Source: Spirochaetaceae bacterium (GTDB lineage: Bacteria > Spirochaetota > Spirochaetia > SZUA-6 > Bin103). Taken from it: DNA of 64,000 nucleotides. The first letter of the stretch is position 1. The number at the start of each line of letters is the position of its first letter. Of the stretch, positions 34,839 through 50,191 are shown in pieces. The stretch spans positions 1,136 through 65,135 of the forward strand of contig JAPPGB010000047.1 in NCBI GenBank assembly GCA_028821475.1, given 5' to 3'. The notes under the pieces were generated by a model. It did no database searches and had not been told where the DNA came from. It was given only the letters and a program-made list of their open reading frames with translations. Position numbers and translations under genes: made by a program.

Positions 34839-35096
34839 AGCGGTCGGCCCGGCGGTTCAGATAGGCCTGCTCGATGCCCTCCTGGATCTCGTGAAAGTCC
34901 GGCCAGGCCCCGCCAGCGCCGCCAGACCGGACGGTGAATCCACGGTTCCCACCTCGCCCATCACGGGAGTGATCACCGCTATCGGTCCCGCGCTGCAGGA
35001 CGTCACCGGCAGTGTCATCCTGTTGTCCGACAGGCTACTCCGGCTGGATCGTGGTATTCAGACCGGCTCTCGATCCCTGGGGTTGAAGTGACCATG

Positions 35097-35113
35097 TGAT
35101 GTCCATATGATAG
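35097..35113. promoter_or_regulatory. Perfect inverted repeat CATATGA-N3-TCATATG overlapping the phd start codon (candidate TA autoregulatory operator)
   Basis: Read directly. The ATG of the Phd gene (35118) lies just 3' of the right half-site. Confidence 0.35.
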
Positions 35114-35117
35114 TCAT

Positions 35118-35360
35118 ATGCGTTCGATCACCATTGCCAAGCTGAAGGCGACACTGAGTGCCGAGTTGCGGCGAGTCCGCGCGGGGGAGCGGGTCACGGT
35201 CCTCGATCGCACCACTCCGGTGGCGCTCCTCGCGCCGGTTCCGGCGGCGATCCGCGTGGTGCGGGCAGCGAAGGCGCCCTACGCCCACCGGACGCTGACG
35301 CCTCTGATGGCGCGCGATCCGTTGCCCTATCTGGACGAGGAGCGCGGCGAAGCTTGGTAG
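35118..35360 (+). CDS. Phd/prevent-host-death family antitoxin
   Basis: MRSITIAKLKATLSAELRRVRAGERVTVLDRTTPVALLAP. It overlaps the vapC start by 7 nt. Confidence 0.75.
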   Translation: MRSITIAKLKATLSAELRRVRAGERVTVLDRTTPVALLAPVPAAIRVVRAAKAPYAHRTLTPLMARDPLPYLDEERGEAW

Positions 35361-35782
35361 CCTATCTGGACTCCTCGGTTGTGCTGCGTCACATCCTGCT
35401 GGGCGAGGCATCCATCAGGCATGCGCTGGCGTTCCCACGCGTGGTGTCGAGTGAGCTGATCGAGATCGAGTGCCGAAGGGTACTGCATCGCTGCCGCCTC
35501 GCCGGCGAACTCGACGACGAGACCCTGGCGGCGGCGCACCAACGTCTGGATGCCGTGCTGGCCGGAATCGACCTCCTGGAGATGTCGACGCAGATCAAAC
35601 GGCGAGCAGCGGAACCGTTCCCGGTGCACGTGCGCACCCTCGACGCGCTGCATGTCGCGACCGCGCTCGCGGTCGGCGAGGATGTCGGTGGGCAGGATGT
35701 CGGTGGGACTGTACTGTTCTCGCACGACAAGGGCATGAACCTCTGCGCCGGATGCCTCGGGCTCACGGCAGCCTTGGTATAG
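35354..35782 (+). CDS. vapC: VapC family PIN-domain toxin
   Basis: MVAYLDSSVVLRHILLGE...DALHVATAL. Confidence 0.8.
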   Translation: MVAYLDSSVVLRHILLGEASIRHALAFPRVVSSELIEIECRRVLHRCRLAGELDDETLAAAHQRLDAVLAGIDLLEMSTQIKRRAAEPFPVHVRTLDALHVATALAVGEDVGGQDVGGTVLFSHDKGMNLCAGCLGLTAALV

Positions 35783-35920
35783 GCCCGGCCGCGACACGAT
35801 CCATGCGTACCCTCGCCAGGAACCGATGCAGTTCGTTGGACTCGGCGGGGTCGAGCGGGCGCGCCAACACCTCGTCTCGAACTTGCTGCGGCACGACGAC
35901 ATCGCCTCCCAGGACGCGGT
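35764..35920 (-). pseudogene. Internal fragment of a DUF3368 PIN-domain gene (paralog of 50259-50750)
   Basis: Encodes RVLGGDVVVPQQVRDEVLARPLDPAESNELHRFLARVRMDRV, about 80% identical to residues 25-66 of the intact copy. It lacks both ends and abuts the dppC 3' end at the junction ...caggacgcggt|cagacgctgccgc. Confidence 0.5.
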
Positions 35921-36792
35921 CAGACGCTGCCGCGCAGGCGGGGGTCGAGCAGGTCGCGCAGCGCGTCGCCGAACATGTTCAGACTGAACACGGTGATCGT
36001 CAGGCAAAGTCCCGGCCAGGCGGCCAGCCACGGCGCCCGCTCCATGTACTCACGTCCTTCCCGGCTGAGCAAGCCTCCCCAGCTCGGAACGGTGGGCGGC
36101 AGTCCAAACCCGAGGAAGCTCAGAGACGCCTCGGATATCATCACCCCGCCGATATTGATGCTGAACACGATGATTGCGACAGGCATGATATTGGGCAGGA
36201 CATGGCGCACGAACGCTCGCCACTTCGAGGCGCCAAGCGCCTCCGCGGCCTGAAAATAGAGATTCTCCTTGATGCCGACGACCGCGCCTCGCACCACCCG
36301 CGAGCCGCCGATGCCGCCGGCTATGCCCAGGACGACTATTATCTGCGTTACGCCGCGCCCGACCAGCGACATTATCGTCAACAGGATCAACAATCCCGGG
36401 AACGCCATCCAGGCATCGACGAATCTCTGCACGGCCAGGTCGAACTTGCCGCCGAGGAATCCGGACGTGCCCCCGATCAGGAGCGCCACCACGACATTGA
36501 TACTGGTGGCCGCCAGACCGACCGCTATCGACAGCCGGGCTCCGTAGATGACCCGGCTCAACAAGTCGCGCCCCAACTGGTCGGTGCCCAGCGGATGCCG
36601 GGCCGATGAGCCCTGCAGTCTGTCCCTGAGGTGCACTTCAAGGAAGCCGTAAGGGGCCAGAACATCGGCGAATACAGCCACGAGAATCAATAGCAATACG
36701 ACAATACCGCAACCGACACCGAGTGGCTGTTCCCTGACCATCCTGGCAACGAAATCAGCCAGCGCGGTACGCCTCCTGGTCGCTTCACGCAT
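35920..36792 (-). CDS. ABC transporter permease (DppC/OppC-like)
   Basis: Binding-protein-dependent permease fold with the EAAxxxGA region and the C-terminal MFGDALRDLLDPRLRGSV. Start overlaps the dppB stop (ATGCGTGA). Confidence 0.85.
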   Translation of the reverse strand: MREATRRRTALADFVARMVREQPLGVGCGIVVLLLILVAVFADVLAPYGFLEVHLRDRLQGSSARHPLGTDQLGRDLLSRVIYGARLSIAVGLAATSINVVVALLIGGTSGFLGGKFDLAVQRFVDAWMAFPGLLILLTIMSLVGRGVTQIIVVLGIAGGIGGSRVVRGAVVGIKENLYFQAAEALGASKWRAFVRHVLPNIMPVAIIVFSINIGGVMISEASLSFLGFGLPPTVPSWGGLLSREGREYMERAPWLAAWPGLCLTITVFSLNMFGDALRDLLDPRLRGSV

Positions 36793-37744
36793 AGCGGACC
36801 CGGGGGTCGAAAAGAGGATAAACCAGGTCTATCATCAAATTGAAGCACACCACCGCGGTTGCGAAAAACAGGTTCACCCCGGAGACCACCGGGTAGTCTC
36901 TTTCTTCGAGCGCCAACACCATGAGGCGACCCAATCCGGGCAGGTTGAAGATGTTCTCCATGATAACGGAGCCACCAACCAGGATAGGCAACTGCAGGCC
37001 GATCAGGGTAACCACCGGGATCAGGGCGTTCTTGATTGCGTGTCTCATGATGACGAATCGCTCCTTGAGGCCCTTGGACCACGCCGTCCTGATATAGTCC
37101 TGCCTCAGCACCTCCAGCATCATGGTACGCGTCAGCCGCATGGTGCCGGCAGCAAGAGCCGTGCCCAGAATCAGGCTCGGAACGATGAACACCGCGAGAT
37201 TGCCCAGCGGGTCTTGGGTGAAAGAGACCAGCCGCATCGGCGGCGACCAGCCCCACCAGAGTGCCGGGTAAATAATCACCATCAGGGCCAGCCAGAAGTT
37301 GGGCGTTGCCAGGCCGATGACGGCGGCGGCGCGCCCCACGTAGTCGGCGGCCGAATTACGGCGCACCGCCGAGTAGATGCCGACCGGCACGGCGATCACC
37401 AACCCGATCAGGATTGCCAGAACACCCAGCTCGATGGTCACCGGAAGTCTAGCCGATATTCTCTGCTCTATCGAAACATCGGTTCCCCACAGTGAATTTC
37501 CAAGCGTGCCGCGCAACAGGATACCTCCGATCCAGCGTCCATACTGCACGTGGAACGGCACGTCCAATCCAAGCTGTTTCTCGAGAGCTTCACGATCCGG
37601 CACAAACCCCATCATTTCCAGTTGAACCGTCATTGCGTCTATTGCATCGCCGGGGATGAAGCGCACCGAGAGAAACGTCACGACGGTGACGATGAACAGG
37701 GTGGGAATCATCAGCAGGAGCCGGCGGATGATGTAGGCTCTCAT
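36785..37744 (-). CDS. ABC transporter permease (DppB/OppB-like)
   Basis: 319 aa. The N-terminal MRAYIIRRLLLMIPTLFIVTVVTF is typical of DppB. Confidence 0.85.
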   Translation of the reverse strand: MRAYIIRRLLLMIPTLFIVTVVTFLSVRFIPGDAIDAMTVQLEMMGFVPDREALEKQLGLDVPFHVQYGRWIGGILLRGTLGNSLWGTDVSIEQRISARLPVTIELGVLAILIGLVIAVPVGIYSAVRRNSAADYVGRAAAVIGLATPNFWLALMVIIYPALWWGWSPPMRLVSFTQDPLGNLAVFIVPSLILGTALAAGTMRLTRTMMLEVLRQDYIRTAWSKGLKERFVIMRHAIKNALIPVVTLIGLQLPILVGGSVIMENIFNLPGLGRLMVLALEERDYPVVSGVNLFFATAVVCFNLMIDLVYPLFDPRVRYA

Positions 37745-37827
37745 GTCACATCACGTCAGTTCCGACGGGTAGAGGAAAACCGGGGGGCCTGAGCCCCCCA
37801 GTCTCAGCGGGCACTAGTTTACCAGTA

Positions 37828-39636
37828 CTAATTTAGCAGTTCTGCCTTCAGCTCCTGGTCAATCCAGACACGGGCGTACAGGTCGCTCATTTGCCAATTC
37901 CCCATGGTCGCTTCGCCGTTATACCCCTTCAACCACGGCTGGCTGACATGATACATCGGGGAAACGGGACCCCAGATATTCCAATGTTGCTCCAGCGCGT
38001 ACATGTCTATCTCGCGGAACCACCCGTGGTACTCGTCGAGACTCGTGCTCGCCTTCAGGGCATCAATCATGGCGTCCATGTGAGGATCGCTGACGACCGC
38101 GGCGTTACCTGAAGTGCCTGAATGCCACCCCGTTGCATGAGCCTCATTGAAGTAGTTGGCGCCCGATATCGAGCCTATGAGATCCTCGAATGTGCCTTCA
38201 CGCAGGACCGCGCCGAACTCGGCCCCTGTAGACAGCACCTGAATCTCCAGATCAATGCCAAGCTCGCTCCAGTATGCAGCCGCCAATTCAAAGTAGCTGA
38301 GAACAGAATTTGCGTGAAGGACAACGGAGGTCTTGAATCTCGTGCCGTCGGCGCCGCGCGGGTAGCCGGCCTCATCGAGGAGCTTCTCGGCACCTTCGGG
38401 ATCGTACCTGTGGCCCCTCTTCACCTCGTCCGGCCACTCCTCGAACGGGACGAAGAGCCCCTTCTGAGCTGTTCCGACCTTCCCATGAGGCGTGATATCT
38501 CCCCTCCCTCCGAGGTAGGTTTCGTTGATCGTCTCCATGTCCAGCGCCATCTGCAGTGCCTTGCGCACCCTGATGTCGTCGTACGGCGGGTTGCTGGTGT
38601 TGAACCCGAAAGCGAACTCGGACCGTACATAGTACGGCCACTGCGTAATTTCGGGGTTGCTCTTGGCGAGACTCTCCGCCAAGTCTATGGTCCGCAATTG
38701 GGCTTCACCTGCATACCCCCTGTAGTCGAGCTTGCCGGAGCGCAGTGCCGCCGTACGGGTAGCCTCTTCTCGCATGATCAGCGCCACCAGCTCGTCAATG
38801 TAGGGCAGGCGGTTGTCCGGGTACTTTTCGTCGAAGCCCCAGTAGTTGGGATTCTTGAGCCAGGTGACGGACGATCCTTCGACATAGTCGGTCAGCATGA
38901 ACGGCCCCGTGCCGACCAGGTTCCTCCAGTCGTTGATGTTGCCGTGTTCCTCGATCACCTCCGGTGGATGGATGTCGAACGTGTACCACTGGAGGAGCGT
39001 AAACAGCGCAACAGGGTTGGGCTGCGCCAGCTCGATAACGACCGTCCATTGGTCGGTGGCCGTTACCGATTCGACTCCCACTGCGCCCAGCGGGCCCGCT
39101 CCCGGGGCAACCTCCGTAAAGCCGCTGCCCAGGCCGAGATAGCGGTGATAGTTGTATGCGATGTCATCGGCAGTCAGCTCGCGACCGTTCATCGGCGGCT
39201 TGTCATGCCAGTGAACGCCCTGGCGGATGTTGAGAACGATGGTCGTGTCGTCGGGTGTTTCCCAGCTCTCCGCCAGCGATCCCGTGAGACTCCAGAGCGG
39301 CGTGTCGGAGCTGACCATGCTCCGGCCCCATTCGTCTGCCGGCAGAGCCCAGTTCGCTATCGATGGTTTCTCAAGCACGCCTTGGACGAGCAAGAGACCG
39401 GAGCGACCGTTCAACGCTTCGTCGGCGGCGCCCGTCTCGGGCATGACGGTGGCATAGGTCAATGTCCCGCCGTATCGTGGCGCCTCCACCATCTCCCCGG
39501 TTCTGGGGTCGAGCACCATTTCCTTCTCGGCCGCCGCGGCCGGCTGGTCGCTCTCGCCGCTGGCCCAGACGCCGGTCGCGGCCAGGACGAACACGAGCAC
39601 AACCACGAAAGGGTGTGCAATTCCTGGAAGATTCAT
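37828..39636 (-). CDS. ABC transporter substrate-binding protein (family 5, peptide/nickel type)
   Basis: Signal peptide MNLPGIAHPFVVVLVFVLAATGVWA and a GGGAG RBS. About 600 aa, typical SBP_bac_5 size. No ATPase genes in the operon. Confidence 0.8.
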   Translation of the reverse strand: MNLPGIAHPFVVVLVFVLAATGVWASGESDQPAAAAEKEMVLDPRTGEMVEAPRYGGTLTYATVMPETGAADEALNGRSGLLLVQGVLEKPSIANWALPADEWGRSMVSSDTPLWSLTGSLAESWETPDDTTIVLNIRQGVHWHDKPPMNGRELTADDIAYNYHRYLGLGSGFTEVAPGAGPLGAVGVESVTATDQWTVVIELAQPNPVALFTLLQWYTFDIHPPEVIEEHGNINDWRNLVGTGPFMLTDYVEGSSVTWLKNPNYWGFDEKYPDNRLPYIDELVALIMREEATRTAALRSGKLDYRGYAGEAQLRTIDLAESLAKSNPEITQWPYYVRSEFAFGFNTSNPPYDDIRVRKALQMALDMETINETYLGGRGDITPHGKVGTAQKGLFVPFEEWPDEVKRGHRYDPEGAEKLLDEAGYPRGADGTRFKTSVVLHANSVLSYFELAAAYWSELGIDLEIQVLSTGAEFGAVLREGTFEDLIGSISGANYFNEAHATGWHSGTSGNAAVVSDPHMDAMIDALKASTSLDEYHGWFREIDMYALEQHWNIWGPVSPMYHVSQPWLKGYNGEATMGNWQMSDLYARVWIDQELKAELLN

Positions 39637-39861
39637 ACTGATCTCTCCCACATGTGAGATTGTGAGAGTGCTTCCGGTGCGAGTTGCCGTTCCCTGCCCA
39701 CTCTCGCGCCCGCAACGCAGGCGGCCAAAGCCGAGACGGCAATCTCAGGTGGTCACGCGCGCGGCATGAGTGTGACTCACTCTAGCAGCTAGGCCGCGCG
39801 CATGCTGCGATTAGTGTTGCAGACGCGCGACTACCCGTCAACTCCGTCAGTTGTGCGGCTA

Positions 39862-39901
39862 TTGACCGAAGACCACATATGACACTATATGCGGTGTCAT
39901 G
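39862..39901 (+). promoter_or_regulatory. hicAB promoter/operator copy 1: TTGACC-N17-CTATAT with inverted repeat ATGACAC-N8-GTGTCAT overlapping -10 and start codon
   Basis: Read directly. An identical arrangement is present at 44974-45013 upstream of the second hicAB copy. Confidence 0.45.
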
Positions 39902-40306
39902 CCGGGGGTTGGACCGGGTGTCAACGCTGCCATCGTCTGGCTCAACGCGTATGCGTACAACATCACGGTGCGGGAGTGCGTCTTCGAAGGCGAACCACTG
40001 TTCGAGGCTCGCGTCAAGGAGCTGCCGGACGTTCGGGAATATGCGGAGTCCGCACAGGAAGCCTACGATCTGGCCATCGACACCATCGAGACGGCAGCCG
40101 GGATGTTTGCCGAGACCGGCCGGCCGTTCCCGCCCCCGACCAGCCCGCAGGATGAATTCAGCGGCCGCGTTACGCTGCGCATTCCCAGAAGCCTGCATCG
40201 TGCGCTGGCGAGCGCGGCCGAAGACGAGGGCGTGAGCCTCAACCAACACCTCGTCACGGCCCTGACCCGCCTACACGCGAGTGCCGGCGCCAAGCGGCAC
40301 GGATAG
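39899..40306 (+). CDS. hicB: HicB-family antitoxin fused in frame to the first 12 codons of hicA (hicA deleted)
   Basis: MPGVGPGVNAAI (hicA N-terminus) is joined to LNAYAYNITV...RIPRSLHRALASAAEDEGVSLNQHLVTAL (HicB C-terminal RHH-like). Apart from the deleted hicA segment and the altered junction (IVW here, M+MKR there), the HicB-coding part is identical to 45303-45680. Confidence 0.7.
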   Translation: MPGVGPGVNAAIVWLNAYAYNITVRECVFEGEPLFEARVKELPDVREYAESAQEAYDLAIDTIETAAGMFAETGRPFPPPTSPQDEFSGRVTLRIPRSLHRALASAAEDEGVSLNQHLVTALTRLHASAGAKRHG

Positions 40307-40406
40307 GGAGCCGGCACGCCGGATTGGCCGCGGCGCCGTCTCCCGTATCGCCCACGCCGGAGACGCCGCTTGACTTTGGCGCTGACCCAAGGCACACCAT
40401 CCACCC

Positions 40407-41525
40407 ATGCCACCTGTCACGGGACCCACGGACGGGCCGGTCGCCGTTACCGGCGCCTCCGGCTACATCGGATCGCACGTCGTCAAGAACCTGGTCGAGG
40501 CGGGCTACGCGGTGCGCGCCAGCGTGCGCGACGCCAGCCGCCGGGACAAGACAGAGTTCCTCCTGGCCATGAACGACCTTGGCGCGGGCAGCGTCGAGAT
40601 CTTCGCGGCCGACCTGCTGCAGGCCACCGGCGGCGCCTACGACGAGGTGTGTGCCGGCTGCTCGGCGGTGTTTCACGTCGCCGCCGACCTGGGCACCGAC
40701 GCCGCGTACGGAGAAGGCAGCGCGCAACGCACCTACAACGCCATCATGGACGGCACCAGGGGCGTGCTGGAGTCGTGTCGCAGGGCCGGCACCGTCAAGC
40801 GGGTGGTGTACACCTCGTCGTGCGCGGCGGTATGGAGTGGCTGGCGGGGTGGAGCCGACCCCAGCGGCTACGAGTTCACCGAGCGGGACTGGGGCGGCCA
40901 CGGCACCGCCGAGCACCTGTGGAACGTCGAGACGGCCTCCTACGCCAAGGGCAAGGTGGATGCCGAGAAGTATGGCTATGCCTGGGGCGAGGAGACCGGC
41001 ATCGACGTGGTCTCCAACATGCCCAGCCACGTGCTCGGTCCGGTGCTCAACAGGACACAGAACAATGTGTGGCAGAAGAAGATCGGCCAGGCGCTGTCCG
41101 GGCAAAGCGGGCTGGACGCCGCCGGGAACTGGATCGGCCTCGGCTTCGGGCCGGCCATCGCGACGCTGGAGGGCGCGTCGCCCGGCTTCCTGTGGAACGT
41201 GATCGACGTGCGCGACATCGGCCAGGCGCAGCGCCTGATGGCAACCAGCAGCGTCGCCACCAACGGATCCCGATACATCCTGGGCGCCACCGACGAGTCC
41301 GGCGAGCTCACCGCGCGGCAGATGCGCGCTGCGCTCAGCGAGCTGTATCCCGATGTCGCGGTGGGCGGCGACTGGCAGACGCCGGACACGCCGGACTTCT
41401 GGCACGCCAAGTGCACCAGGGCCATTCGCGAATTGGGGCTGGAGACCCACCCCGTGCTGGACACGCTCCGGGCCACCGGTGACTCGCTGCTGGAGTGCGG
41501 CGCCATCGAGCTGGCCAGGAAATAG
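40407..41525 (+). CDS. NAD-dependent epimerase/dehydratase family protein (extended SDR, reductase-like)
   Basis: N-terminal VAVTGASGYIGSHVV, and YAKGK (YxxxK) active site. Confidence 0.8.
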   Translation: MPPVTGPTDGPVAVTGASGYIGSHVVKNLVEAGYAVRASVRDASRRDKTEFLLAMNDLGAGSVEIFAADLLQATGGAYDEVCAGCSAVFHVAADLGTDAAYGEGSAQRTYNAIMDGTRGVLESCRRAGTVKRVVYTSSCAAVWSGWRGGADPSGYEFTERDWGGHGTAEHLWNVETASYAKGKVDAEKYGYAWGEETGIDVVSNMPSHVLGPVLNRTQNNVWQKKIGQALSGQSGLDAAGNWIGLGFGPAIATLEGASPGFLWNVIDVRDIGQAQRLMATSSVATNGSRYILGATDESGELTARQMRAALSELYPDVAVGGDWQTPDTPDFWHAKCTRAIRELGLETHPVLDTLRATGDSLLECGAIELARK

Positions 41526-41527
41526 CG

Positions 41528-41622
41528 CGCACTTCCCGGACCTGGAAACCGCGGACATTCGGGCCTGCCTGCAGTTCGCTGCGGATCGTGAGCGCAGGTT
41601 GGTATCGATACCGCTGGAGTGA
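41528..41622 (+). pseudogene. 3' remnant of a DUF433 antitoxin gene
   Basis: AHFPDLETADIRACLQFAADRERRLVSIPLE* versus the intact copy ...LPDLTPDDIKACLSFAADRERRFVSVPAE* at 22248-22475. It begins 1 nt after the epimerase stop and continues 7 nt into the DUF5615 start (GTGAAGCT) before diverging. Confidence 0.55.
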
Positions 41623-41632
41623 AGCTTAGAAG

Positions 41633-42106
41633 CTAATCGGCTGCGCCGGCGGACGGCTCCCGGTCACCGCCGGCCTGCTCCTGCCGTGCGGCAGCCGCCC
41701 GTTCGATATCCGCGGCGATGCGGGCGCACAGGCGCTGGATGCGGCGCGCGTCGGCCGCCGCCCCGCGAGCGCCGGCCGGCTCTTCGTCGTACTCGAAGTA
41801 GAACGCCGGCGCGCGTCGCTCGGCCAATCGCGCGGAGACGGCGTGCACGTCGGCCGCTTCCACCTCGCTCAGGGGCATCTGCCGGGCGGCAAGCGTAGCC
41901 ACGAACAGTTCGGCGGCGTCGTGCACCTTCGGATAGTCGATGCACAGGTAGGTGAGCACCGCCTTCAGTGCCAGCTCCACGACTTCCTGCGCGCGGCGCA
42001 CCGCGATGTTCCACGAACCGCGGCGCAGCGCGCCCTCCATCTCCGCGAGGTGCTCGCGCGACGCCGCCAGCAGTTTGCGGCCGCGCTCGCCGTTGCTCAT
42101 CGCCAA
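41633..42106 (-). CDS. HEPN domain protein (toxin of HEPN/MNT pair)
   Basis: 157 aa, AVRRAQEVVELALKAVL...DYPKVHDAAELF (KTHDL-type HEPN motif). Downstream of the MNT gene. Confidence 0.7.
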   Translation of the reverse strand: MAMSNGERGRKLLAASREHLAEMEGALRRGSWNIAVRRAQEVVELALKAVLTYLCIDYPKVHDAAELFVATLAARQMPLSEVEAADVHAVSARLAERRAPAFYFEYDEEPAGARGAAADARRIQRLCARIAADIERAAAARQEQAGGDREPSAGAAD

Positions 42107-42116
42107 ACCCGCATGA

Positions 42117-42656
42117 TCACAACTCGATCATCTCTCCGGGGCGCAGGTCGGGCTTGAGATCCCAGTACCACGAGCCGTCGGCCAACTCGATGCGCCGCGA
42201 CCCCAACTCGGCGAGCCGCCTCCGGAGCGCCGCCAGCTTGGCGTGCAGCACTTGACGCGGATCGAACAGAACGATGCCGTGGTGAGAGACGTCCAGCAGC
42301 AGCCACGGGGTGTCGACCAGCGCTGCTTCCGACCGGAACACCGGCATCGGGTTGGTGGGCACGCCACGCGCCTGCAACTCCGCCGTGAGCGGCGCAGCAC
42401 GCAGCGCCAACTCCACTTCGACGAAGCTGTCCGCGACGCGCTCGCCGTCGCCCCGATACACCAGGAACAGGTCGATGTCGCTCTCCGCTCGCGCCTCACC
42501 GCGAGCCACCGACCCGTAGAGCGCGACCGCGACCAGTCGCTCATCCAGCTCGGCGCCCAACCTGGCGAGCAAACAGTCGGTGAGCGGCTTGACCTCAGCA
42601 TAGCCGGACCTGCGCCCCGTGCCGCATCTCTCTGAAGATGCTTCCATTGCTGCCAT
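42117..42656 (-). CDS. Minimal nucleotidyltransferase (MNT) domain protein
   Basis: LYGSVARGEARAESDIDLFLV is the canonical GSxxRG...DIDL. Start uncertain (42656 or 42647; ORF open to 42770). Confidence 0.75.
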   Translation of the reverse strand: MAAMEASSERCGTGRRSGYAEVKPLTDCLLARLGAELDERLVAVALYGSVARGEARAESDIDLFLVYRGDGERVADSFVEVELALRAAPLTAELQARGVPTNPMPVFRSEAALVDTPWLLLDVSHHGIVLFDPRQVLHAKLAALRRRLAELGSRRIELADGSWYWDLKPDLRPGEMIEL

Positions 42657-42708
42657 GATAGCACATGCCACTACCCGGGAAGCCGGTCGGATGCGGCCAA
42701 CGTCCTGA

Positions 42709-42891
42709 TCAAACTCCGCGGTGGAGAGGCTTGGGCCGCTCGGCACGGCGGGCCAGGAAGTACTCGGCAACCACTGAGAGCTGCTCGATCACGAGCAGTT
42801 TGTCGCGCAACGGGAGTGCGCGGAACTCCTCCCGTTGGCGGCGGCGGTTGCCGGCAAACGTGACCACCCGCCAATCGTTCTCGTCAGCCAT
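42709..42891 (-). CDS. Small hypothetical protein
   Basis: 60 aa (MADENDWRVVTFAGNRRRQREEF...). Its ATG overlaps the stop of the upstream fragment (ATGGCTGA). No recognizable family. Confidence 0.3.
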   Translation of the reverse strand: MADENDWRVVTFAGNRRRQREEFRALPLRDKLLVIEQLSVVAEYFLARRAERPKPLHRGV

Positions 42892-42906
42892 TTCCTTCCC
42901 TCCGAT

Positions 42907-43120
42907 CAAGCCGAGTCAGCTCCGCGATATCCGCCAGGTCTTGGGGCCTGCCCGCCGCGCGCTTCAGCCGCAGCAGGACTTCCAGCCGCACGATCCGTAT
43001 CGGCACTCCGGGCGACACCTCCTCGACCAGCGCCGCCGCGTACTCGGCAGCGAAGTCGAACGGTTCCGCGGCGAACAGGTCGACCGACGTCTCGCGGTGC
43101 CGGTCGCTGTGGAAGCCCAG
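42907..43120 (-). pseudogene. Start-less 3' gene fragment (...IVRLEVLLRLKRAAGRPQDLADIAELTRL)
   Basis: This reading frame opens immediately after the TAG of the PIN fragment, with no start codon. The C-terminal motif KRAAGRPQDLADIAEL is reminiscent of nucleotidyltransferase-like Abi/TA proteins, but the family is not identified. Confidence 0.3.
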
Positions 43121-43318
43121 CTACGACCGGTCGATTTCGCGAATCACCGCGGCATACAGCTCCACCCCGATGCGGAAGCCATGGGAGCGCACGAGGTCGT
43201 CCACGAGCCGGCGCACCTCGGCCCGGTCGACCAGTCCCCGCCGCAACGCGAGCAGCAATACGCCGAGCGTGCCGAGCGGTCGAATGCCTTCGACTGCGGC
43301 GACCGGTGAGCGGATCCC
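43121..43318 (-). pseudogene. 3' fragment of a DUF3368 PIN-domain gene
   Basis: The last about 65 codons (VEGIRPLGTLGVLLLALRRGLVDRAEVRRLVDDLVRSHGFRIGVELYAAVIREIDRS) are about 92% identical to the C-terminus of 50259-50750. Upstream sequence is unrelated GC-rich filler. Confidence 0.55.
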
Positions 43319-43708
43319 GATAGCGGCAGCGTCCCCCGTCGCGCAGCCAGACGTGACGCCGGACCGCCGCCGGAATGGGGCGCCGCAGCCGCTTGCGGCG
43401 CGCCCGATGCCCCGGCCCGGCGGGCGCCGCCCACCGCCACAGCGGATGCGGTCAGGCGCGCAGCACCGGACGCCGCTGCAGCGGCAGCCGGTGGAGTTGG
43501 CGGCACCCGAGTCCAATCGCACCGGCTGCGCACCCGCCGCTGCCGGGCCGGCAACGACCGCCGCCGACTCGTCAGGATACCCTCCGCGGCGGCTGCTCCC
43601 GGTGCATCGGTCTTCGCGGCCTCCGGCGTCAAAACATCGTGGATACCAGCTATGGGGTTTATCGAGCCCGAGCCGCTTCTTCAGGGCCTCCTCATCAGGT
43701 CAGCCCGG

Positions 43709-44740
43709 TCAGCCAAGCGGCGCCTCGGCCGCCGCCTTCCGCGCGCGTATTCGCGTCTGCGCGCGGGCGCGCATCTTGGCGTGCGCCTCGGCCGTGCCGT
43801 CGTGCATGCTGCCGAACAGCTTGTCCAGGAACATGTCCTCGTCGGAGGCGTAGTTGCACTCGAAGTAGCGGTGGTGCAGGTAGTGAAAGTAGCTGCCGTG
43901 GGCCAGCGCGGCCTTCTCGTGACCGAGCTCCATCTTCGAAAAGCCGGTGTGTCCCAGCGCCGGCGTCAGGCCGGCGTACTGCAGGTGGAAGATCGCATGC
44001 AGCGGATGCGACGGGACGATCAAGTGCACGAACATGTAGCTGAAGTAGATCAGGCTCTCGATGGGGTGCATCGAGATGCCCGACCACGGGCCCACGTTGA
44101 CGTTGCGGTGGTGGACGTAGTGGGCGGCCTTGTACAACGGCTTCCAGTGCATCAGCCGGTGGACTACGTAGAAATGGGCGGCGCGGAAGAACGGGATCGC
44201 AAGGAACAGCAGCACGAATGCGACCGGGCTGGTACGGAACGCCATGAAGGGAAGCAGGCCGTTGGCGTACGCCCACAGGGTAACCACCTCATACGCCGTC
44301 CAGATCCCGCCGCCGCTGACGATGCTGTAGAAGACGTTGTCGGCCGTCTGGCCGCCGAGGAAGAAGGCCCGGCTTTTCTCGGCGAGCCAACGGTTGTTGA
44401 ACTTGTAGCGCAGTCCCTGGGCGCGCTGGACGTGCAGGCGCACGTGAAAGATGCTGTACCACACGGCAATCAGGGCGACATTCCGTAGCAGGATCAGCGC
44501 GATCCAGCCCGGCCGCAGCGTCGCCATCGTCTCCAGGGGCGGCGTCAGGAAGAACCAGGTCACCGCGGTCAGGCCGAAGATCACCGCCTTGTAGGGCCAC
44601 AAGAAGCCGGGAAACCCGAACAGCCACGTGAGGAAGGGGGCGAGCCTGAACGGCCAGCGTGGGAACGCGGGCAACTCGATGCGCGCTACCGGCTTCCAGT
44701 TGCCCCGGGCGTCCCTACCCGGGAGGTCTGCGTACTCCAT
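43709..44740 (-). CDS. Fatty acid hydroxylase superfamily / sterol desaturase-like membrane protein
   Basis: Multi-TM protein with histidine boxes HRLMHW, HYVHH and HYLHH. Confidence 0.75.
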   Translation of the reverse strand: MEYADLPGRDARGNWKPVARIELPAFPRWPFRLAPFLTWLFGFPGFLWPYKAVIFGLTAVTWFFLTPPLETMATLRPGWIALILLRNVALIAVWYSIFHVRLHVQRAQGLRYKFNNRWLAEKSRAFFLGGQTADNVFYSIVSGGGIWTAYEVVTLWAYANGLLPFMAFRTSPVAFVLLFLAIPFFRAAHFYVVHRLMHWKPLYKAAHYVHHRNVNVGPWSGISMHPIESLIYFSYMFVHLIVPSHPLHAIFHLQYAGLTPALGHTGFSKMELGHEKAALAHGSYFHYLHHRYFECNYASDEDMFLDKLFGSMHDGTAEAHAKMRARAQTRIRARKAAAEAPLG

Positions 44741-44769
44741 TCGCCGACCGTACCTCCCCCGTCTCCCAA

Positions 44770-44820
44770 GGTCAACCGGGCCGCCGGTTGACCCCCTGAC
44801 CGGGCCGCGCGGTCAACCGG
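44770..44820. repeat. Three copies of the self-complementary 10-mer unit GGTCAACCGG/CCGGTTGACC (perfect 10-bp stem hairpin plus a third copy)
   Basis: GGTCAACCGG at 44770-44779, its reverse complement at 44784-44793 (4-nt loop), and GGTCAACCGG again at 44811-44820. It lies 30 nt upstream of the desaturase start and upstream of the hicAB promoter. Confidence 0.5.
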
Positions 44821-44973
44821 CACACGGCGCCGTACTCGGCACCTGTAGCCCAGCGCCAGGCGGTGAACGCGGGCCCACCGGGTAGCGGATGTGCGGGCGA
44901 AACAGGCGCCTGAGCGTACCAGGGCTCTGGAGTCGGCAATGCGCGAGATGCGCGAAAATGCCCGATGCGGCCA

Positions 44974-45013
44974 TTGACCGAAGACCACGTATGACACTAT
45001 ATACGGTGTCATG
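44974..45013 (+). promoter_or_regulatory. hicAB promoter/operator copy 2 (TTGACC...ATGACAC-N8-GTGTCAT)
   Basis: ATGACAC at 44991-44997 and GTGTCAT at 45006-45012 overlap the ATG at 45011. About 95% identical to 39862-39901. Confidence 0.45.
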
Positions 45014-45306
45014 CCGGGGGTTGGGCCGGGTGTCAACGCTGCCATCGCCTATCTGTCTACCGGCGCGCGTATTCGATGCGACGCGATGATCCGGTTGCTG
45101 ACCGGTCTCGGCTTTTCCGTCCGCGATGGCCGAAAGCAGGGCCACAAGGTCATCACCCACCGGGGCCTGGATGCCTTTACGTCGGCCGCCTTTCTTGCGG
45201 CCATGGCAAGAACCCGCAGGTCAAGCCGGTGTACGTGGCGAGTATCCGCTCGTTGCTCGCGTCCCATGCGGATGACTTGCAGAAACTGCCGGGAGGTCAG
45301 GAGTGA
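45011..45306 (+). pseudogene. hicA: HicA-family toxin gene requiring a frameshift
   Basis: Frame A reads MIRLLTGLGFSVRDGRKQGHKVITH (the HicA fold through the SHH-type motif). The C-terminal part (...GHGKNPQVKPVYVASIRSLLASH...QE*) is in a second frame ending in TGA, which overlaps the hicB start. Confidence 0.5.
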
Positions 45307-45680
45307 TGAAGAGGCTCAACGCGTATGCGTACAACATCACGGTGCGGGAGTGCGTGTTCGAAGGCGAACCACTGTTCGAGGCTCGCGTCAAGGAGCTGCC
45401 GGACGTTCGGGAATATGCGGAGTCCGCACAGGAAGCCTACGATCTGGCCATCGACACCATCGAGACGGCAGCCGGGATGTTTGCCGAGACCGGCCGGCCG
45501 TTCCCGCCCCCGACCAGCCCGCAGGATGAATTCAGCGGCCGCGTTACGCTGCGCATTCCCAGAAGCCTGCATCGTGCGCTGGCGAGCGCGGCCGAAGACG
45601 AGGGCGTGAGCCTCAACCAACACCTCGTCACGGCCCTGACCCGCCTACACGCGAGTGCGGGCGCCAAGCGGCACGGATAG
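45303..45680 (+). CDS. hicB: HicB-family antitoxin
   Basis: Identical protein to the hicB part of 39899-40306. C-terminal RIPRSLHRALASAAEDEGVSLNQHLVTALTR. Confidence 0.75.
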   Translation: MMKRLNAYAYNITVRECVFEGEPLFEARVKELPDVREYAESAQEAYDLAIDTIETAAGMFAETGRPFPPPTSPQDEFSGRVTLRIPRSLHRALASAAEDEGVSLNQHLVTALTRLHASAGAKRHG

Positions 45681-45735
45681 GGAGCCGGCACGCCGGATTG
45701 GCCGCGATTGGTCATTGTATCAACTCTGCGGGGTA

Positions 45736-46689
45736 TCAACTCTGCGGGGCCGCGGCGTCGGCGCCGTAGCGGCCGAGGCGGCCGCGCAGGCGGGGGTCGA
45801 GCAGGTCGCGCACCGCGTCGCCGAACATGTTGAGGCTGTAGACGACCACGGTCAGGCACAGTCCCGGCCACAGCGCCAGGTGCGGCGCCATCTCCATGTA
45901 CTGCCGACCCTCGCGGCTCAGCATGCCGCCCCAGCTCGGTATGTCCGGCGGCAGTCCGAAGCCCAGGAAGCTCAGCGCCGCCTCCGACATGATCACCCCG
46001 CCGACGTTGATGCTGAAGATGATGATGATCGGCGCCGCGATGTTGGGCAGCACGTGGCGCAGCAGCGAGCGCCGGCGCGAGCTGCCGATCGCCTGCGCCG
46101 CCTGGAAGTAGACGTTCTCCTTGACCCCCAGCACCGCGCCGCGCACCACCCGCGAGGCGGGGATGCCGCCCGACACCCCGAGCACGATGATGATCTGCAG
46201 CATGCCACGGCCGGCAATCGACATGATGGTGAGCAGCAGCAGCAGCCCCGGGAACGCCATCCAGGCGTCGACGAAGCGCTGCGTCACCAGGTCCAGCCGG
46301 CCGCCGATGAAGCCGGTGGTACCGCCGATCAGCACCGCCACCACGACGGTGAGGGCGGTGGCGGCCAGCCCCACCGACAGCGACAGCCGCGCCCCGTGGA
46401 TGAGGCGGCTCAGCAGGTCGCGCCCGACGTGGTCGGTGCCCAGCAGGTACGCGGCCGAGGGGGCCTGCAGGCGGTCGCGCAGGTGGATCTCCTCGAAGCG
46501 GTAGGGCGCCAGCGAATCGGCGAAGATGCTCACCAGCACCAGGAGCAGGATGACGATGCCGCCGGCGGTGCCCAACGGCTGTTCACGGAGCAGCCGGGCG
46601 AAGAAACGCCGCGCTCCCGCGTGCCCGGGCGCAGCCGCCCCGGTGGCCGGCTCGGCGCCGGCCGGAGTGATCTGTGATACGTCACCCAC
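45736..46689 (-). CDS. DppC/OppC-like ABC permease, paralog copy 2
   Basis: 317 aa, about 75% identical to 35920-36792. GTG start with an AGGAGAG RBS. The C-terminus is altered (DPRLRGRLGRYGADAAAPQS), with a 14-nt tandem duplication (TATCAACTCTGCGGGG x2) just 3' of it. Confidence 0.75.
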   Translation of the reverse strand: MGDVSQITPAGAEPATGAAAPGHAGARRFFARLLREQPLGTAGGIVILLLVLVSIFADSLAPYRFEEIHLRDRLQAPSAAYLLGTDHVGRDLLSRLIHGARLSLSVGLAATALTVVVAVLIGGTTGFIGGRLDLVTQRFVDAWMAFPGLLLLLTIMSIAGRGMLQIIIVLGVSGGIPASRVVRGAVLGVKENVYFQAAQAIGSSRRRSLLRHVLPNIAAPIIIIFSINVGGVIMSEAALSFLGFGLPPDIPSWGGMLSREGRQYMEMAPHLALWPGLCLTVVVYSLNMFGDAVRDLLDPRLRGRLGRYGADAAAPQS

Positions 46690-46710
46690 GGGCTCTCCTC
46701 ATTGCACTCG

Positions 46711-46800
46711 CCTGGTCCGAAGAAGCCGGCCGGCAGCCGATGCTTCGGCATCGGTATTCATCGTCTTCGATGTCACGGAGTGACCGTACAGACTCATTCG
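46711..46800 (-). promoter_or_regulatory. Conserved ~90-nt two-hairpin leader element, copy A (5' of the dppC paralog)
   Basis: In transcript sense: GGUCAC-ucc-GUGAC hairpin, then gacgaugaaua, then CCGAUGC-cgaa-GCAUCGG hairpin, then GCCGGCCGGC, then the RBS. About 85% identical to 61432-61520. Confidence 0.4.
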
Positions 46801-46949
46801 TAGCGGATCCGCGGGTCCAGCGACGCGTACAGCAGGTCGGTCAGCAGGTTGACCGCCGCCACCACCGTGGCGAAGAACAGGTTCACCGCCGACACCACCG
46901 GGTAGTCGCGCTCGTTGAGCGCGTCCAGCATCAGCCCTCCGAGCCCCGG
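46794..46949 (-). pseudogene. 3' fragment of a DppB-like permease gene
   Basis: Encodes only ...ENIFNLPGLGGLMLDALNERDYPVVSAVNLFFATVVAAVNLLTDLLYASLDPRIRYE*. Sequence upstream is an out-of-frame dppC 3' end. Confidence 0.6.
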
Positions 46950-46965
46950 CAGGTTGAAGATGTTC

Positions 46966-47688: not shown

Positions 47689-47689
47689 C

Positions 47690-47804
47690 GGAGGCGATCG
47701 TTCACGGCTACCACGTCGAGGAGATCGACATACAGGCAGCGCTCCAGTATGCGGCGGACCTGGGCCGCGATCGCGTCGTTGTTGTTCCTGCGCGTGATGC
47801 GTGA
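47690..47804 (+). pseudogene. 3' fragment of a DUF433-family gene (paralog)
   Basis: ...VEEIDIQAALQYAADLGRDRVVVVPARDA* aligns with the DUF433 C-terminus (DIKACLSFAADRERRFVSVPAE). Confidence 0.45.
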
Positions 47805-47807
47805 CGA

Positions 47808-47960
47808 GTGGAGTTCAAGATAGATGAGAACCTGCACTCTGACGCGGCCGCCCTATTGCGGCGCCATGGTCACGACGCCGTAACGGTCTACGAGCAGCGC
47901 CTGCGCGGAGGAAGTGACGAGGAAGTCATTGGCGTCTGCCGACGTGAAGGACGTGCACTT
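47808..47960 (+). pseudogene. 5' fragment of a DUF5615 (PIN-like) gene
   Basis: GTG start. MEFKIDENLHSDAAALLRRHGHDAVTVYEQRLRGGSDEEVIGVCRREGRAL aligns with the DUF5615 N-terminus (MKLLFDQNLSPRL...), after which the frame decays. Confidence 0.45.
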
Positions 47961-49878: not shown

Positions 49879-49888
49879 CAGTCGGTAG

Positions 49889-50131: not shown

Positions 50132-50191
50132 GGGCTGCCTCCCGTACGTCATACCGTACGCTACGGACTGCTCAGGGTCAAGTCGTCACAC

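What the first reader, a model, noticed from the sequence alone, without database searches (positions are those of the whole stretch)
39782..40330. Two copies of a hicAB locus, neither with a working hicA (second copy at 44950-45705), both fronted by the same operator palindrome
Copy 2 has hicA split across two frames, with the SHH-motif half in one frame and the C-terminal half in another. Copy 1 has an about 250-bp in-frame deletion that removes hicA and fuses its first 12 codons to hicB. Both retain an identical promoter with ATGACAC-N8-GTGTCAT overlapping the -10 and the start codon, and the HicB proteins are identical.

Repeated independent inactivation of the toxin, with antitoxin and operator retained, suggests selection against HicA activity, or hicB domestication as a regulator.
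Basis: seen in the sequence. Interest (0 to 1): 0.6.

Follow-up and report, generated by a model that had tools for sequence, protein, structure and literature searches.

The report
Two toxin-less hicAB antitoxin cassettes
Two copies of a small toxin-antitoxin cassette (hicAB) have both lost the toxin gene by different mutations but kept the antitoxin-repressor and its binding site, which is an ordinary example of how such cassettes decay, toxin first.

Summary
The two loci are 39853-40330 and 44965-45704.

Copy 2 is a full hicA-hicB cassette. Its hicA lacks one T of a TTTT run (TTT at 45191-45193). A sister strain's hicA is identical at every other base and reads as an intact 98-aa gene.

Copy 1 lacks 262 bp (equivalent to 45051-45312). 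This joins hicA codons 1-13 in frame to hicB codon 5, giving a 135-aa ORF.

Both lesions recur in independent assemblies that differ by about 0.5% from the window. They are therefore neither sequencing errors nor an assembly duplication.

The upstream gene is a divergent HicA: it has no Pfam hit itself, but 50 of 68 relatives hit PF07927. [quoted passage not shown]

The palindrome TGACAC-N8-GTGTCA is conserved in 83 of 88 related loci. It spans a TATATA box and ends 0-3 nt before the hicA ATG, which implies HicB autorepression of a nearly leaderless mRNA.

Across about 100 related loci, hicA is broken or missing in about 16 independent cases. hicB is broken in one, where hicA is also broken.

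The best reading is ordinary toxin-first erosion, plus gene conversion between the two hicB copies. Nothing supports domestication. This is a new member of a known kind, of low to moderate interest.

The parts
39862..39867 (+). Copy 1 -35-like hexamer, TTGACC.
   Evidence: Read from the sequence. In related loci a TTGACA-like hexamer lies 11-13 nt before GACAC, with at least 5 of 6 matches in 32 of 73 distinct sites. The strict sigma-70 scan did not call it.
39880..39899 (+). Copy 1 operator palindrome, TGACAC-TATATGCG-GTGTCA. It encloses the -10-like TATATG, and its last A is the A of the start codon.
   Evidence: Exact match. The site is conserved in 83 of 88 related loci; the position weights are.
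39899..40306 (+). Copy 1 fused ORF of 135 aa: HicA residues 1-13, a junction Trp, then HicB residues 5-125. The coordinates include the stop codon.
   Evidence: ORF list. PF05534 HicB, E = 2.6e-11. The same 135-aa gene is called in L002, L102 and L108. In the AF2 model the best fold matches are B. pseudomallei HicB.
39938..39939 (+). Deletion junction in copy 1. The 262 bp equivalent to copy 2 positions 45051-45312 are missing, and there is no microhomology at the junction.
   Evidence: Pairwise alignment and multiple alignments A5 and A6.
39939..40332 (+). hicB repeat block of copy 1, 99.5% identical to 45313-45706. It includes a gene-conversion tract covering at least 40073-40156.
   Evidence: The variant table shows window copy 1 carrying copy 2 states where copy 1 of L102 and L108 does not.
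44974..44979 (+). Copy 2 -35-like hexamer, TTGACC.
   Evidence: Sequence and family spacing.
44992..45011 (+). Copy 2 operator palindrome, TGACAC-TATATACG-GTGTCA. It overlaps the -10-like TATATA and the hicA ATG.
45011..45306 (+). Copy 2 hicA pseudogene. Residues 1-61 are in one frame (45011-45193) and residues 62-98 in the next (45193-45303), with the stop at 45304-45306.
   Evidence: tblastn and HMM hits split over two frames. The repaired translation matches the family consensus FTSAAFSCGHGKNPQVKPVYV. It is identical to the intact L103 hicA apart from the one missing T.
45191..45193 (+). Frameshift site: TTT where relatives have TTTT, a 1-nt deletion.
   Evidence: Alignment A7. L102 has TTT; L103, L104 and L105 have TTTT.
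45303..45680 (+). Copy 2 hicB, 125 aa from GTG 45303 or 124 aa from ATG 45306. GGGAGG at 45289-45294 serves as the SD.
   Evidence: ORF list. PF05534, E = 2.2e-11, 43.9 bits against a cutoff of 21. It is identical to the NCBI protein named 'toxin-antitoxin system HicB family antitoxin [Spirochaetaceae bacterium]' (P0032).
40333..44964 (.). The 4.6-kb mosaic spacer between the copies. It is not part of the cassette.
- Epimerase, 40407-41525 (+)
- HEPN, 41633-42106 (-)
- Nucleotidyltransferase, 42117-42770 (-)
- DUF3368 remnant, 43118-43294
- Fatty-acid hydroxylase, 43709-44740 (-)
   Evidence: Pfam scan. Comparison with the sister strain L103, which has a different arrangement here.

Best explanation
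These are two paralogous cassettes of a divergent 'class 4' hicAB toxin-antitoxin family: hicA first, then hicB with a C-terminal ribbon-helix-helix domain. They lie in a TA-rich, recombination-prone stretch between paralogous peptide ABC-transporter operons of a high-GC metagenome-assembled Spirochaetaceae genome. Both are caught in toxin-first erosion.

How the intact cassette works (inferred):
- A promoter (TTGACA, then a 16-18-bp spacer, then TATATA) has its -10 box inside the 8-bp spacer of the palindrome TGACAC-N8-GTGTCA.
- The palindrome ends 0-3 nt before the hicA ATG, so the hicA-hicB mRNA is leaderless or nearly so.
- A HicB oligomer binds the palindrome through its RHH domains and shuts the promoter off.
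- The HicB N-terminal domain neutralises the HicA RNase.

Copy 2:
- A very recent 1-nt deletion truncates the native HicA sequence after residue 61. This removes strand beta3 and helix alpha2, so no toxin can be made.
- hicB keeps its own SD and start and is still made.

Copy 1:
- It is an older paralogue in which a 262-bp deletion removed hicA and hicB's own start signals.
- The deletion happened to join hicB in frame to the leaderless hicA start. HicB, carrying a 14-residue foreign N-terminus, is therefore the only product of that promoter.
- Its hicB segment has been partly homogenised by gene conversion from copy 2.

Net effect: the cell makes HicB from two cross-repressing promoters and no HicA from this region.

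Shown: the anatomy, the lesions, their presence in independent assemblies, conservation of the operator, the family-wide asymmetry and the gene conversion.
Inferred: HicB binding to the palindrome, the leaderless mRNA, expression and function of the fusion, and the view that the state reflects erosion rather than selection.

The lesions are real:
- L102, from another sample, is 99.44% identical over 10,351 bp. It has the same fusion and the same TTT.
- L108 has the same fusion.
- The window contains no N.

The frameshift is young:
- The sister strains L103, L104 and L105 are 98.5% identical over hydroxylase-hicAB. They carry an intact 98-aa hicA that differs from the window's only by the extra T.
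- dN/dS of the repaired hicA against L001 and L003 is 0.16-0.21. An intact pair gives 0.22.

Copy 1 is older and has been converted:
- Copy 1-specific bases at 39982 and 40285 are shared by the window, L102 and L108.
- At 40073, 40100 and 40156 the window's copy 1 carries copy 2 states. Copy 1 of L102 and L108 does not, and two of those three L102/L108 states equal the outgroup states.

Family identity:
- HicB hits PF05534 with E = 2e-11.
- 50 of 68 HicA relatives hit PF07927, best E = 1.1e-8.
- The HicA model has pLDDT 86.7 with an alpha-beta3-alpha core. It superposes on S. pneumoniae HicA 5yrz_B with target-normalised TM-score 0.73 and rmsd 2.5 A.
- The best fold hits of the HicB model are B. 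pseudomallei HicB, at probability 0.99-1.0.
- hicA is followed by hicB in all 17 genome loci that contain a hicA gene (L020, a 22-residue hicA fragment, has none).

Operator:
- GACAC-N8-GTGTC is present in 83 of 88 loci. The 5 without it are exactly those lacking the hicA 5' end.
- ATG follows 0-3 nt after GTGTC in 62 of 73 distinct sites, and a -35 hexamer lies 11-13 nt upstream.

Erosion pattern:
- About 16 independent hicA disruptions or absences occur across 81 clusters. hicB is truncated in one cluster, which also has a broken hicA.

Literature:
- HicB proteins bind palindromes overlapping the -10 box (PMC11594946; PMC10865869).
- Toxin-first, two-step decay is the common pattern (PMC13617665; PMC7167474).
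Against: - The in-frame rescue of hicB in copy 1 had about a 1 in 3 chance of occurring by accident. The fused ORF has stayed open in three strains and was repaired by gene conversion. This could mean copy 1 is kept by selection rather than simply decaying.
- hicB dN/dS values (0.18-0.47) suggest constraint, but they rest on only 7-22 substitutions.
- The survey loci found through HicB are biased towards intact hicB. Some frameshifts in long-read assemblies (L013, L018) could be errors.
- The window's own HicA sequence does not reach any Pfam threshold.
- Both Foldseek E-values are non-significant (1.3 and 0.017), and the HicB model has low confidence (pLDDT 62).
- The strict sigma-70 scan finds no promoter at either copy.
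- Nothing here measures expression or binding.
Confidence: 0.62

Rival explanations
1. The orphan antitoxins are kept by selection as immunity (anti-addiction). The HicB-only copies would neutralise HicA toxins made by other near-identical hicAB cassettes, either elsewhere in the genome or on incoming mobile DNA. The in-frame fusion and the gene conversion would then reflect selection to keep HicB supplied.
For: - Near-identical cassettes (93-98% identical) occur in other contexts in related MAGs, while their flanks are only 67-91% identical (L001, L003, L013).
- The fused ORF is intact in three strains.
- Both differences between the two hicB copies in the window are synonymous.
- There is a conversion tract from copy 2 into copy 1.
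- Orphan hicB genes without hicA recur in the family (L055, L056, L074, L087).
- Anti-addiction is an established idea (PMC7167474).
Against: - No intact hicA of this family lies in the 64-kb window.
- Copy 1 in L102 and L108 carries a non-conservative Gly-to-Arg change in HicB.
- hicA-less loci sit at the tips of near-identical clusters, not in old clades. That pattern fits transient decay.
- The substitution counts are too small for any selection test.
Confidence: 0.22
2. HicB has been domesticated as a transcription factor that controls other genes.
For: - Two expressed HicB copies remain with no toxin.
- HicB carries a DNA-binding RHH domain.
Against: - The 20-bp palindrome, even allowing 2 mismatches, occurs only at the two hicA starts in 64 kb.
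- The frameshift is only one mutation old, which is too recent for a new regulatory role to have evolved around it.
- Across the family the operator is always tied to the hicA start.
Confidence: 0.05
3. The finding is an artefact. Either the frameshift is a homopolymer sequencing error, or the two copies come from a metagenome misassembly or chimera.
For: - The source is a metagenome scaffold. L002 (ROBB21-1_SAMN13943213_METAG-scaffold_951) differs from the window at only 4 bases in 20.4 kb.
- The frameshift lies in a T run.
Against: - The same TTT and the same two-copy layout occur in L102, from a different sample, which differs at 51 of 10,351 positions. The same fusion occurs in L108.
- The copies have different flanks, 8 base differences and a 262-bp indel.
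- The deletion junction has no shared k-mer that could mislead an assembler.
Confidence: 0.04
4. A programmed -1 ribosomal frameshift at the TTT-C site restores full-length HicA in copy 2.
For: A -1 slip after the TTT codon would read TCT-TGC and restore the conserved sequence FSCGHG (sequence).
Against: - C-CTT-TCT is not a slippery heptamer.
- Every other close relative encodes HicA in one frame with TTTT.
- Frameshifts in other family members lie at different codons, about 43, 46, 52, 53, 55 and 61.
Confidence: 0.02

Closest known systems
Burkholderia pseudomallei HicAB (PDB 6G26, 6G1N, 6G1C), a class 4 hicAB in the classification of Gerdes 2024 (PMC10865869)
   Same: - The gene order is hicA then hicB.
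- HicB has an N-terminal partial RNase H-like domain and a C-terminal RHH domain.
- BpsHicB binds a single palindrome that overlaps the predicted -10 box (PMC11594946).
- It gives the best fold matches to the HicB model.
   Different: - There is no detectable sequence match to any solved HicA or HicB.
- HicA here is 98 aa, with an extra N-terminal and an extra C-terminal helix and a GHK motif rather than GSHH.
- The operator abuts the start codon, which implies a leaderless mRNA.
- In the window neither copy has a working toxin.
Yersinia pestis HicA3B3 and E. coli K-12 HicAB
   Same: - HicB autorepresses through inverted repeats at the hicA promoter.
- The main Y. pestis operator, BS2, overlaps the -10 box (PMC11594946).
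- The toxin is upstream of the antitoxin.
   Different: - Y. pestis has two 15-bp operators and a 174-bp intergenic region.
- E. coli HicB has a helix-turn-helix domain and two promoters.
- Here there is one 20-bp palindrome, an RHH domain, and hicA and hicB that overlap or abut.
Toxin-first erosion of chromosomal TA systems: ccdO157 decay in E. coli (Mine et al. 2009, cited in PMC7167474) and the Photorhabdus survey (PMC13617665)
   Same: - The toxin gene is truncated or frameshifted while the antitoxin stays intact.
- The loci sit in high-turnover regions next to other TA modules.
- The decay is recurrent and lineage-specific.
   Different: - The family, host and setting differ.
- Two paralogous copies in one locus show different lesions, with gene conversion between them.
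- One lesion places the antitoxin on the toxin's start codon.
Class 11 fused HicA-HicB single-gene modules (Gerdes 2024, PMC10865869)
   Same: Copy 1 is a single ORF that starts with HicA residues and continues into HicB with a C-terminal RHH domain.
   Different: Class 11 proteins keep a complete HicA domain. Copy 1 keeps only 13 HicA residues and no part of the fold, so it is a deletion product and not a fused TA module.

Membership tests
HicA toxin (Pfam PF07927) | The window's own sequence matches the HicA_toxin profile. | tested here: not met
   The repaired 98-aa HicA and the 172-aa frameshifted ORF have no Pfam hit at E <= 1. There is no NCBIfam HicA hit either.
HicA toxin (Pfam PF07927) | The family as a whole is homologous to HicA_toxin. 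| tested here: met
   50 of 68 relatives, which align with the window protein over its full length, hit PF07927 at E <= 0.01 (best 1.1e-8). In the closer set, 6 of 25 hit it.
HicA toxin (Pfam PF07927) | A dsRBD-like alpha-beta-beta-beta-alpha fold. | tested here: inconclusive
HicA toxin (Pfam PF07927) | A conserved catalytic His after Gly at the start of strand beta2. | tested here: inconclusive
   G44 and H45 are invariant in 68 sequences. hhalign places this stretch against the GSNH stretch of E. coli HicA, but only at 14% probability. The window retains H45.
HicA toxin (Pfam PF07927) | An intact ORF able to give a folded toxin. | tested here: not met
   Copy 2 is frameshifted after residue 61. 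Copy 1 keeps only 13 codons.
HicA toxin (Pfam PF07927) | RNase activity and toxicity that HicB neutralises. | not testable with these tools
   This needs a kill-and-rescue assay using the intact L103 allele.
HicB antitoxin, RHH type (Pfam PF05534; class 4 hicAB) | A match to the HicB profile above the curated cutoff. | tested here: met
   43.9 and 43.7 bits against a cutoff of 21, E = 2e-11, covering residues 72-112. All 120 listed relatives carry PF05534.
HicB antitoxin, RHH type (Pfam PF05534; class 4 hicAB) | An N-terminal partial RNase H-like domain (beta-beta-beta-alpha). | tested here: inconclusive
   The AF2 model has low confidence (pLDDT 62) with elements E22-29, E32-39, E42-49 and H52-73. 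Its best Foldseek hits are B. pseudomallei HicB and that protein's N-terminal domain, at probability 0.99-1.0 and rmsd 1.4-4 A, but with E >= 0.017. There is no sequence hit to any PDB chain.
HicB antitoxin, RHH type (Pfam PF05534; class 4 hicAB) | The gene lies immediately downstream of hicA. | tested here: met
   hicB follows hicA within 0-30 nt in all 17 genome loci that contain a hicA gene (L020, a 22-residue hicA fragment, has no hicB), and in the metagenome loci that contain hicA.
HicB antitoxin, RHH type (Pfam PF05534; class 4 hicAB) | HicB binds a palindromic operator in its own promoter. | not testable with these tools
   The evidence is indirect only. The 20-bp palindrome is conserved in 83 of 88 loci at a fixed position over the -10 box and the start codon.
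Class 11 fused HicA-HicB | A complete HicA domain fused to HicB in one polypeptide. | tested here: not met
   Only HicA residues 1-13 are present in the 135-aa ORF. The HMM finds no HicA domain in copy 1.

The most novel reading that the evidence does not exclude
Copy 1 may not be debris. It could be a selected rewiring, in which a deletion moved hicB onto the toxin's leaderless start codon and created a toxin-free, self-repressed HicB immunity gene. Gene conversion with copy 2 would keep it in repair, and its presence would have made the later loss of hicA in copy 2 harmless. On this reading, paralogous antitoxin-only copies actively drive toxin loss, or protect against sibling cassettes, in TA-rich symbiont genomes.
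Probability: 0.15. Interest if true: 0.45.

Novelty: new member of a known kind. Interest (0 to 1): 0.25.

Why it matters
The practical value lies in annotation. The region encodes two HicB antitoxin-repressors and no active HicA, and the 172-aa ORF at 45011-45529 is a frameshift artefact, not a gene.

The work also defines a divergent HicA/HicB subfamily that Pfam's HicA model mostly misses in this lineage. It supplies a clear candidate operator, TGACAC-N8-GTGTCA, and a probable leaderless transcript. Both could be tested directly.

The strain series gives a clean natural time course of toxin-first TA erosion and of gene conversion between paralogous cassettes:
- an intact cassette in L103;
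- a one-base frameshift in the window and L102;
- a deletion fusion in copy 1.

This illustrates a known process. It does not reveal a new one.

Tried and rejected
**Searches that found nothing**
- Profile searches of the HicA and HicB alignments against PDB sequences gave no hits.
- hhalign of the HicA family against E. coli HicA (the 6hpb_A sequence, confirmed) aligned only 18-26 columns, at 2-14% probability. It was used only as a weak pointer to the His position.
- A search for inverted repeats that might mark cassette ends found none at the homology boundaries. The only meaningful one is the operator.
- An exact-sequence look-up of the 125-aa GTG-start HicB found nothing, because gene callers used the ATG one codon later, giving 124 aa.

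It was redone with database proteins, but the model is poor.

**Negative or neutral tests**
- The strict sigma-70 promoter scan called nothing at either copy. TATATA lacks the T at position 6 that the scan requires.
- The two palindrome matches are not above chance within the window alone.

**Idea dropped**
- I considered that the 4.6 kb between the copies entered by Campbell-type integration of a circle carrying hicAB. The layout fits: SBP lies left of copy 1 and OppC right of copy 2, as around the single cassette in L001.
- I did not adopt it, for three reasons. The L001 flanks are only 67-79% identical paralogues. The sister strain L103 shows a different mosaic, with an epimerase remnant. 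The spacer contains no integrase or replication gene.
Full report
**1. What is in the sequence**

A pairwise alignment of the two regions shows two blocks of homology.
- Block A is 39853-39938 against 44965-45050: 86 bp with 6 mismatches.
- Block B is 39939-40330 against 45313-45704: 392 bp with 2 mismatches. BLAST extends it to 394 bp at 99.5%.
- Between the blocks, copy 2 has 262 bp (45051-45312) that copy 1 lacks.

Block A holds a TTGACC hexamer, the palindrome TGACAC-N8-GTGTCA and the first 13 codons of the upstream gene. Block B is hicB from codon 5 to 24-26 bp past its stop.

The two mismatches in block B are synonymous, so HicB is identical over 121 residues. The window contains no N and has 68% G+C.

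**2. The two lesions**

*Copy 2.* Homology to the upstream protein runs in one frame for residues 1-61 (45011-45193) and in the next frame for residues 62-98 (45193-45303).
- Adding back one T gives FTSAAFSCGHGKNPQVKPVYV, which is exactly the consensus of 24 database relatives.
- At the DNA level the window has GCCGCC-TTT-CTTGC, where L001, L003 and L013 have TTTT.
- As it stands, the ORF reads 61 native residues and then 111 out-of-frame residues across hicB, ending at 45529.

*Copy 1.* The 262-bp deletion is not a multiple of three.
- hicA and hicB lie in different frames. The deletion therefore joins hicA codon 13, through a hybrid TGG codon, to hicB codon 5. The result is a 135-aa ORF at 39899-40306.
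- The deletion also removes hicB's own Shine-Dalgarno (SD) ribosome-binding site (GGGAGG, 45289-45294) and its GTG/ATG start. In copy 1, HicB can therefore only be translated from the hicA start codon.
- The junction shows no microhomology.

**3. Are the lesions real?**

The window is almost identical to ENA scaffold ROBB21-1_SAMN13943213_METAG-scaffold_951. The two differ at 4 bases in 20.4 kb, all within 46300-46377. Since this is a metagenome assembly, the concern about artefacts was reasonable.

Three further lines of evidence answer it.
- L102 (ERZ25069580, a 211-kb contig) is 99.44% identical to window 37306-47652, with 51 mismatches. It has the same layout, the same 135-aa fusion and the same TTT.
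- L108 (ERZ25069412) has the same fusion.
- L103, L104 (NCBI GCA_028818735.1) and L105 are 98.5% identical over the hydroxylase-hicAB stretch. They carry TTTT and an intact 98-aa hicA. Over the whole gene, the L103 allele differs from the window's only by that one T.

So the frameshift is a genuine, very recent strain polymorphism. The duplication is not an assembly artefact.

**4. What the genes are**

*HicB.*
- It matches Pfam HicB (PF05534) at 43.9 bits against a cutoff of 21.
- It is identical to an NCBI protein named HicB family antitoxin from a Spirochaetaceae MAG.
- A low-confidence AF2 model of the fusion (pLDDT 62) shows beta-beta-beta-alpha followed by two C-terminal helices.
- The best Foldseek matches of that model are B. 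pseudomallei HicB and its N-terminal domain, then E. coli and Y. pestis HicB.

*The upstream protein.*
- It has no Pfam or NCBIfam hit of its own.
- However, 50 of 68 full-length relatives hit HicA_toxin (PF07927), with best E = 1.1e-8.
- An AF2 model of an 81%-identical relative (pLDDT 86.7) has an alpha-beta3-alpha core flanked by an extra helix at each end.
- That model superposes on S. pneumoniae HicA with target-normalised TM-score 0.73 and rmsd 2.5 A, although the E-value is not significant.
- G44 and H45 are invariant.
- hicB follows hicA in all 17 genome loci that contain a hicA gene; the one remaining locus, L020, holds only a 22-residue hicA fragment and no hicB.

I therefore file the pair as a divergent branch of class 4 hicAB, that is hicA then hicB with an RHH domain (PMC10865869). 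The motif is QGHKV.

**5. The operator and promoter**

I collected 18 loci from genomes using HicA motifs and 80 from metagenomes using HicB motifs.
- GACAC-N8-GTGTC, with at most 2 mismatches and usually none, lies upstream of hicB in 83 of the 88 loci that have enough upstream sequence. The five exceptions are exactly the loci that lack the hicA 5' end.
- In 73 distinct sites the flanking T and A extend the palindrome to 20 bp. The spacer is TATATATG or its reverse complement.
- ATG follows 0-3 nt after GTGTC in 62 of the 73 sites.
- A TTGACA-like hexamer with at least 5 of 6 matches lies 11-13 nt before GACAC in 31 of the 32 sites that have such a match.

The geometry is therefore -35, a spacer of about 17 bp whose last bases form the left arm, TATATA, and then the right arm at the expected transcription start. 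This implies that repressor binding would occlude the promoter and that the mRNA has almost no leader.

This is inference. A strict sigma-70 scan does not call a promoter, and no binding was tested. Known HicB proteins do bind palindromes overlapping the -10 box (PMC11594946).

Within the window the palindrome occurs only at the two hicA starts.

**6. History of the two copies**

Against the outgroups L001, L003 and L013, the two window copies share derived bases, so they are each other's closest relatives. They are nevertheless not a fresh duplication.
- Copy 1 has its own bases at 39982 and 40285 in the window, L102 and L108.
- Block A is only 93% identical between the copies.
- At 40073, 40100 and 40156, copy 1 of L102 and L108 differs from copy 2, and two of those three states match the outgroups. 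The window's copy 1 instead carries the copy 2 states, including a young derived A at 40156.

This is the signature of a gene-conversion tract from copy 2 into copy 1, 84-302 bp long, in the window's lineage. As a result, the window's fusion protein lacks the T58 and R68 residues seen in L102 and L108.

The sister strain L103 has no copy 1. Between the SBP gene and the hydroxylase it has the following:
- 410 bp of unrelated sequence;
- an 85-bp remnant of the epimerase 3' end;
- an intact DUF3368/UPF0175 pair.

The window has only a 177-bp DUF3368 remnant at that position, together with a HEPN/nucleotidyltransferase pair. The region is therefore a fast-changing mosaic of TA modules between paralogous peptide ABC-transporter operons. 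The order of events cannot be fully reconstructed.

**7. Is toxin loss special here?**

There are 100 hicB loci falling into 81 clusters at 97% identity or more. hicA status across them is as follows.

| hicA status | Independent cases | Loci |
|---|---|---|
| Frameshifted | 7 | window copy 2, L014, L018, L019/L082, L050, L058, L071/L075 |
| In-frame stop | 2 | L012, L062 |
| 5'-truncated | 2 | L013, L067 |
| Internally deleted | 1 | window copy 1 |
| Absent | 4 | L055, L056, L074, L087 |

- hicB is truncated only in L019/L082, where hicA is also broken.
- Even among the 18 loci found through HicA motifs, hicA is broken in 5 and hicB in 1.
- Broken and intact alleles sit side by side in near-identical clusters: L003 against L013 and the window, and L050 against L052 and L054. 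The lesions are therefore young and lie at the tips.
- dN/dS of the repaired window hicA (0.16-0.21) equals that of an intact pair (0.22). hicB gives 0.18-0.47 from few substitutions.

This is the known toxin-first, two-step erosion of chromosomal TA systems (PMC13617665; PMC7167474). Solitary hicB genes have also been noted before (PMC10865869).

Two caveats apply. The metagenome set was found through HicB, which biases it towards intact hicB. Two of the broken loci, L013 and L018, come from long-read assemblies, where indels can be errors.

**8. Verdict**

However, independence of the two lesions cannot be shown, and neither selection against HicA nor domestication of HicB is required.

A selected immunity role for the HicB-only copies remains possible. 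The points in its favour are the in-frame rescue, the ORF staying open in three strains, and the gene conversion. I give it about 0.2.

Overall this is a new member of a known kind. Its useful by-products are a defined divergent HicA/HicB subfamily and a candidate operator.

Noticed in passing
window 45717-45750: A 17-bp tandem repeat, GTATCAA(C/T)TCTGCGGGG, lies between the hicB stop and the OppC stop. It has 2 copies in the window and L102 and 4 copies in the sister strain L103, so its copy number varies between strains.
   Followed up: partly
window 35000-54000: This stretch is a mosaic of TA modules and remnants interleaved with paralogous peptide ABC-transporter operons:
- PIN pair at about 35.1-35.8 kb
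- DUF433 remnant at about 41540-41622
- HEPN/nucleotidyltransferase at 41633-42770, with an inverted paralogue at 53291-53803 (71% identical)
- DUF3368 remnant at 43118-43294
- YoeB/YefM at about 49.6-50.1 kb
- Intact DUF3368/UPF0175 at about 50.26-51.05 kb
   Followed up: partly
window 45736-47688 and beyond 47652: A decayed ABC operon:
- intact OppC at 45736-46689
- a 168-bp OppB fragment at 46800-46967
- a truncated OppC at 46966-47688

In L102 the second operon is complete (OppC 310 aa, OppB 333 aa, SBP 600 aa). Synteny with the window ends at 47652, where the window instead has an AAA_16 ATPase gene.
   Followed up: partly
window 46300-46377: The only four differences between the window and ENA scaffold_951 (L002) in 20.4 kb cluster within 78 bp inside OppC. 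This suggests a strain variant or a consensus mix-up between paralogous permease genes.
   Followed up: no
window 45158-45166: HicA has Arg at position 51 (THRGL), where almost all relatives have Pro (THPGL). At the DNA level this looks like a compensated pair of 1-nt indels: CATCCGGGGCTG became CACCGGGGCCTG. The intact L103 allele has it too, so it predates the frameshift.
   Followed up: partly
L003 5646-5828 and 6675-6815; L013 5451-6018: In L003 the hicAB cassette is flanked on both sides by a fragment of about 140 bp from an OppC 3' end. In L013, hicA is cut off at residue 50-55 next to a gene on the opposite strand. Across L001, L003, L013 and both window copies, the cassette homology starts just before the -35 hexamer and ends about 25 bp after the hicB stop, while the flanks are only 67-91% identical. 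The cassette therefore behaves as a discrete unit that moves or recombines.
   Followed up: partly
window 48304-48533 / 52929-53157; 46710-46799 / 61432-61520; 35792-35920 / 50555-50683: Further short dispersed repeats within the window, 84-94% identical, whose nature was not examined.
   Followed up: no
L102 14172-16375: In the related strain, a DDE transposase gene and a phage-integrase-family gene lie about 6 kb downstream of hicAB copy 2. The window has other genes at that position. This may be a source of the rearrangements.
   Followed up: no
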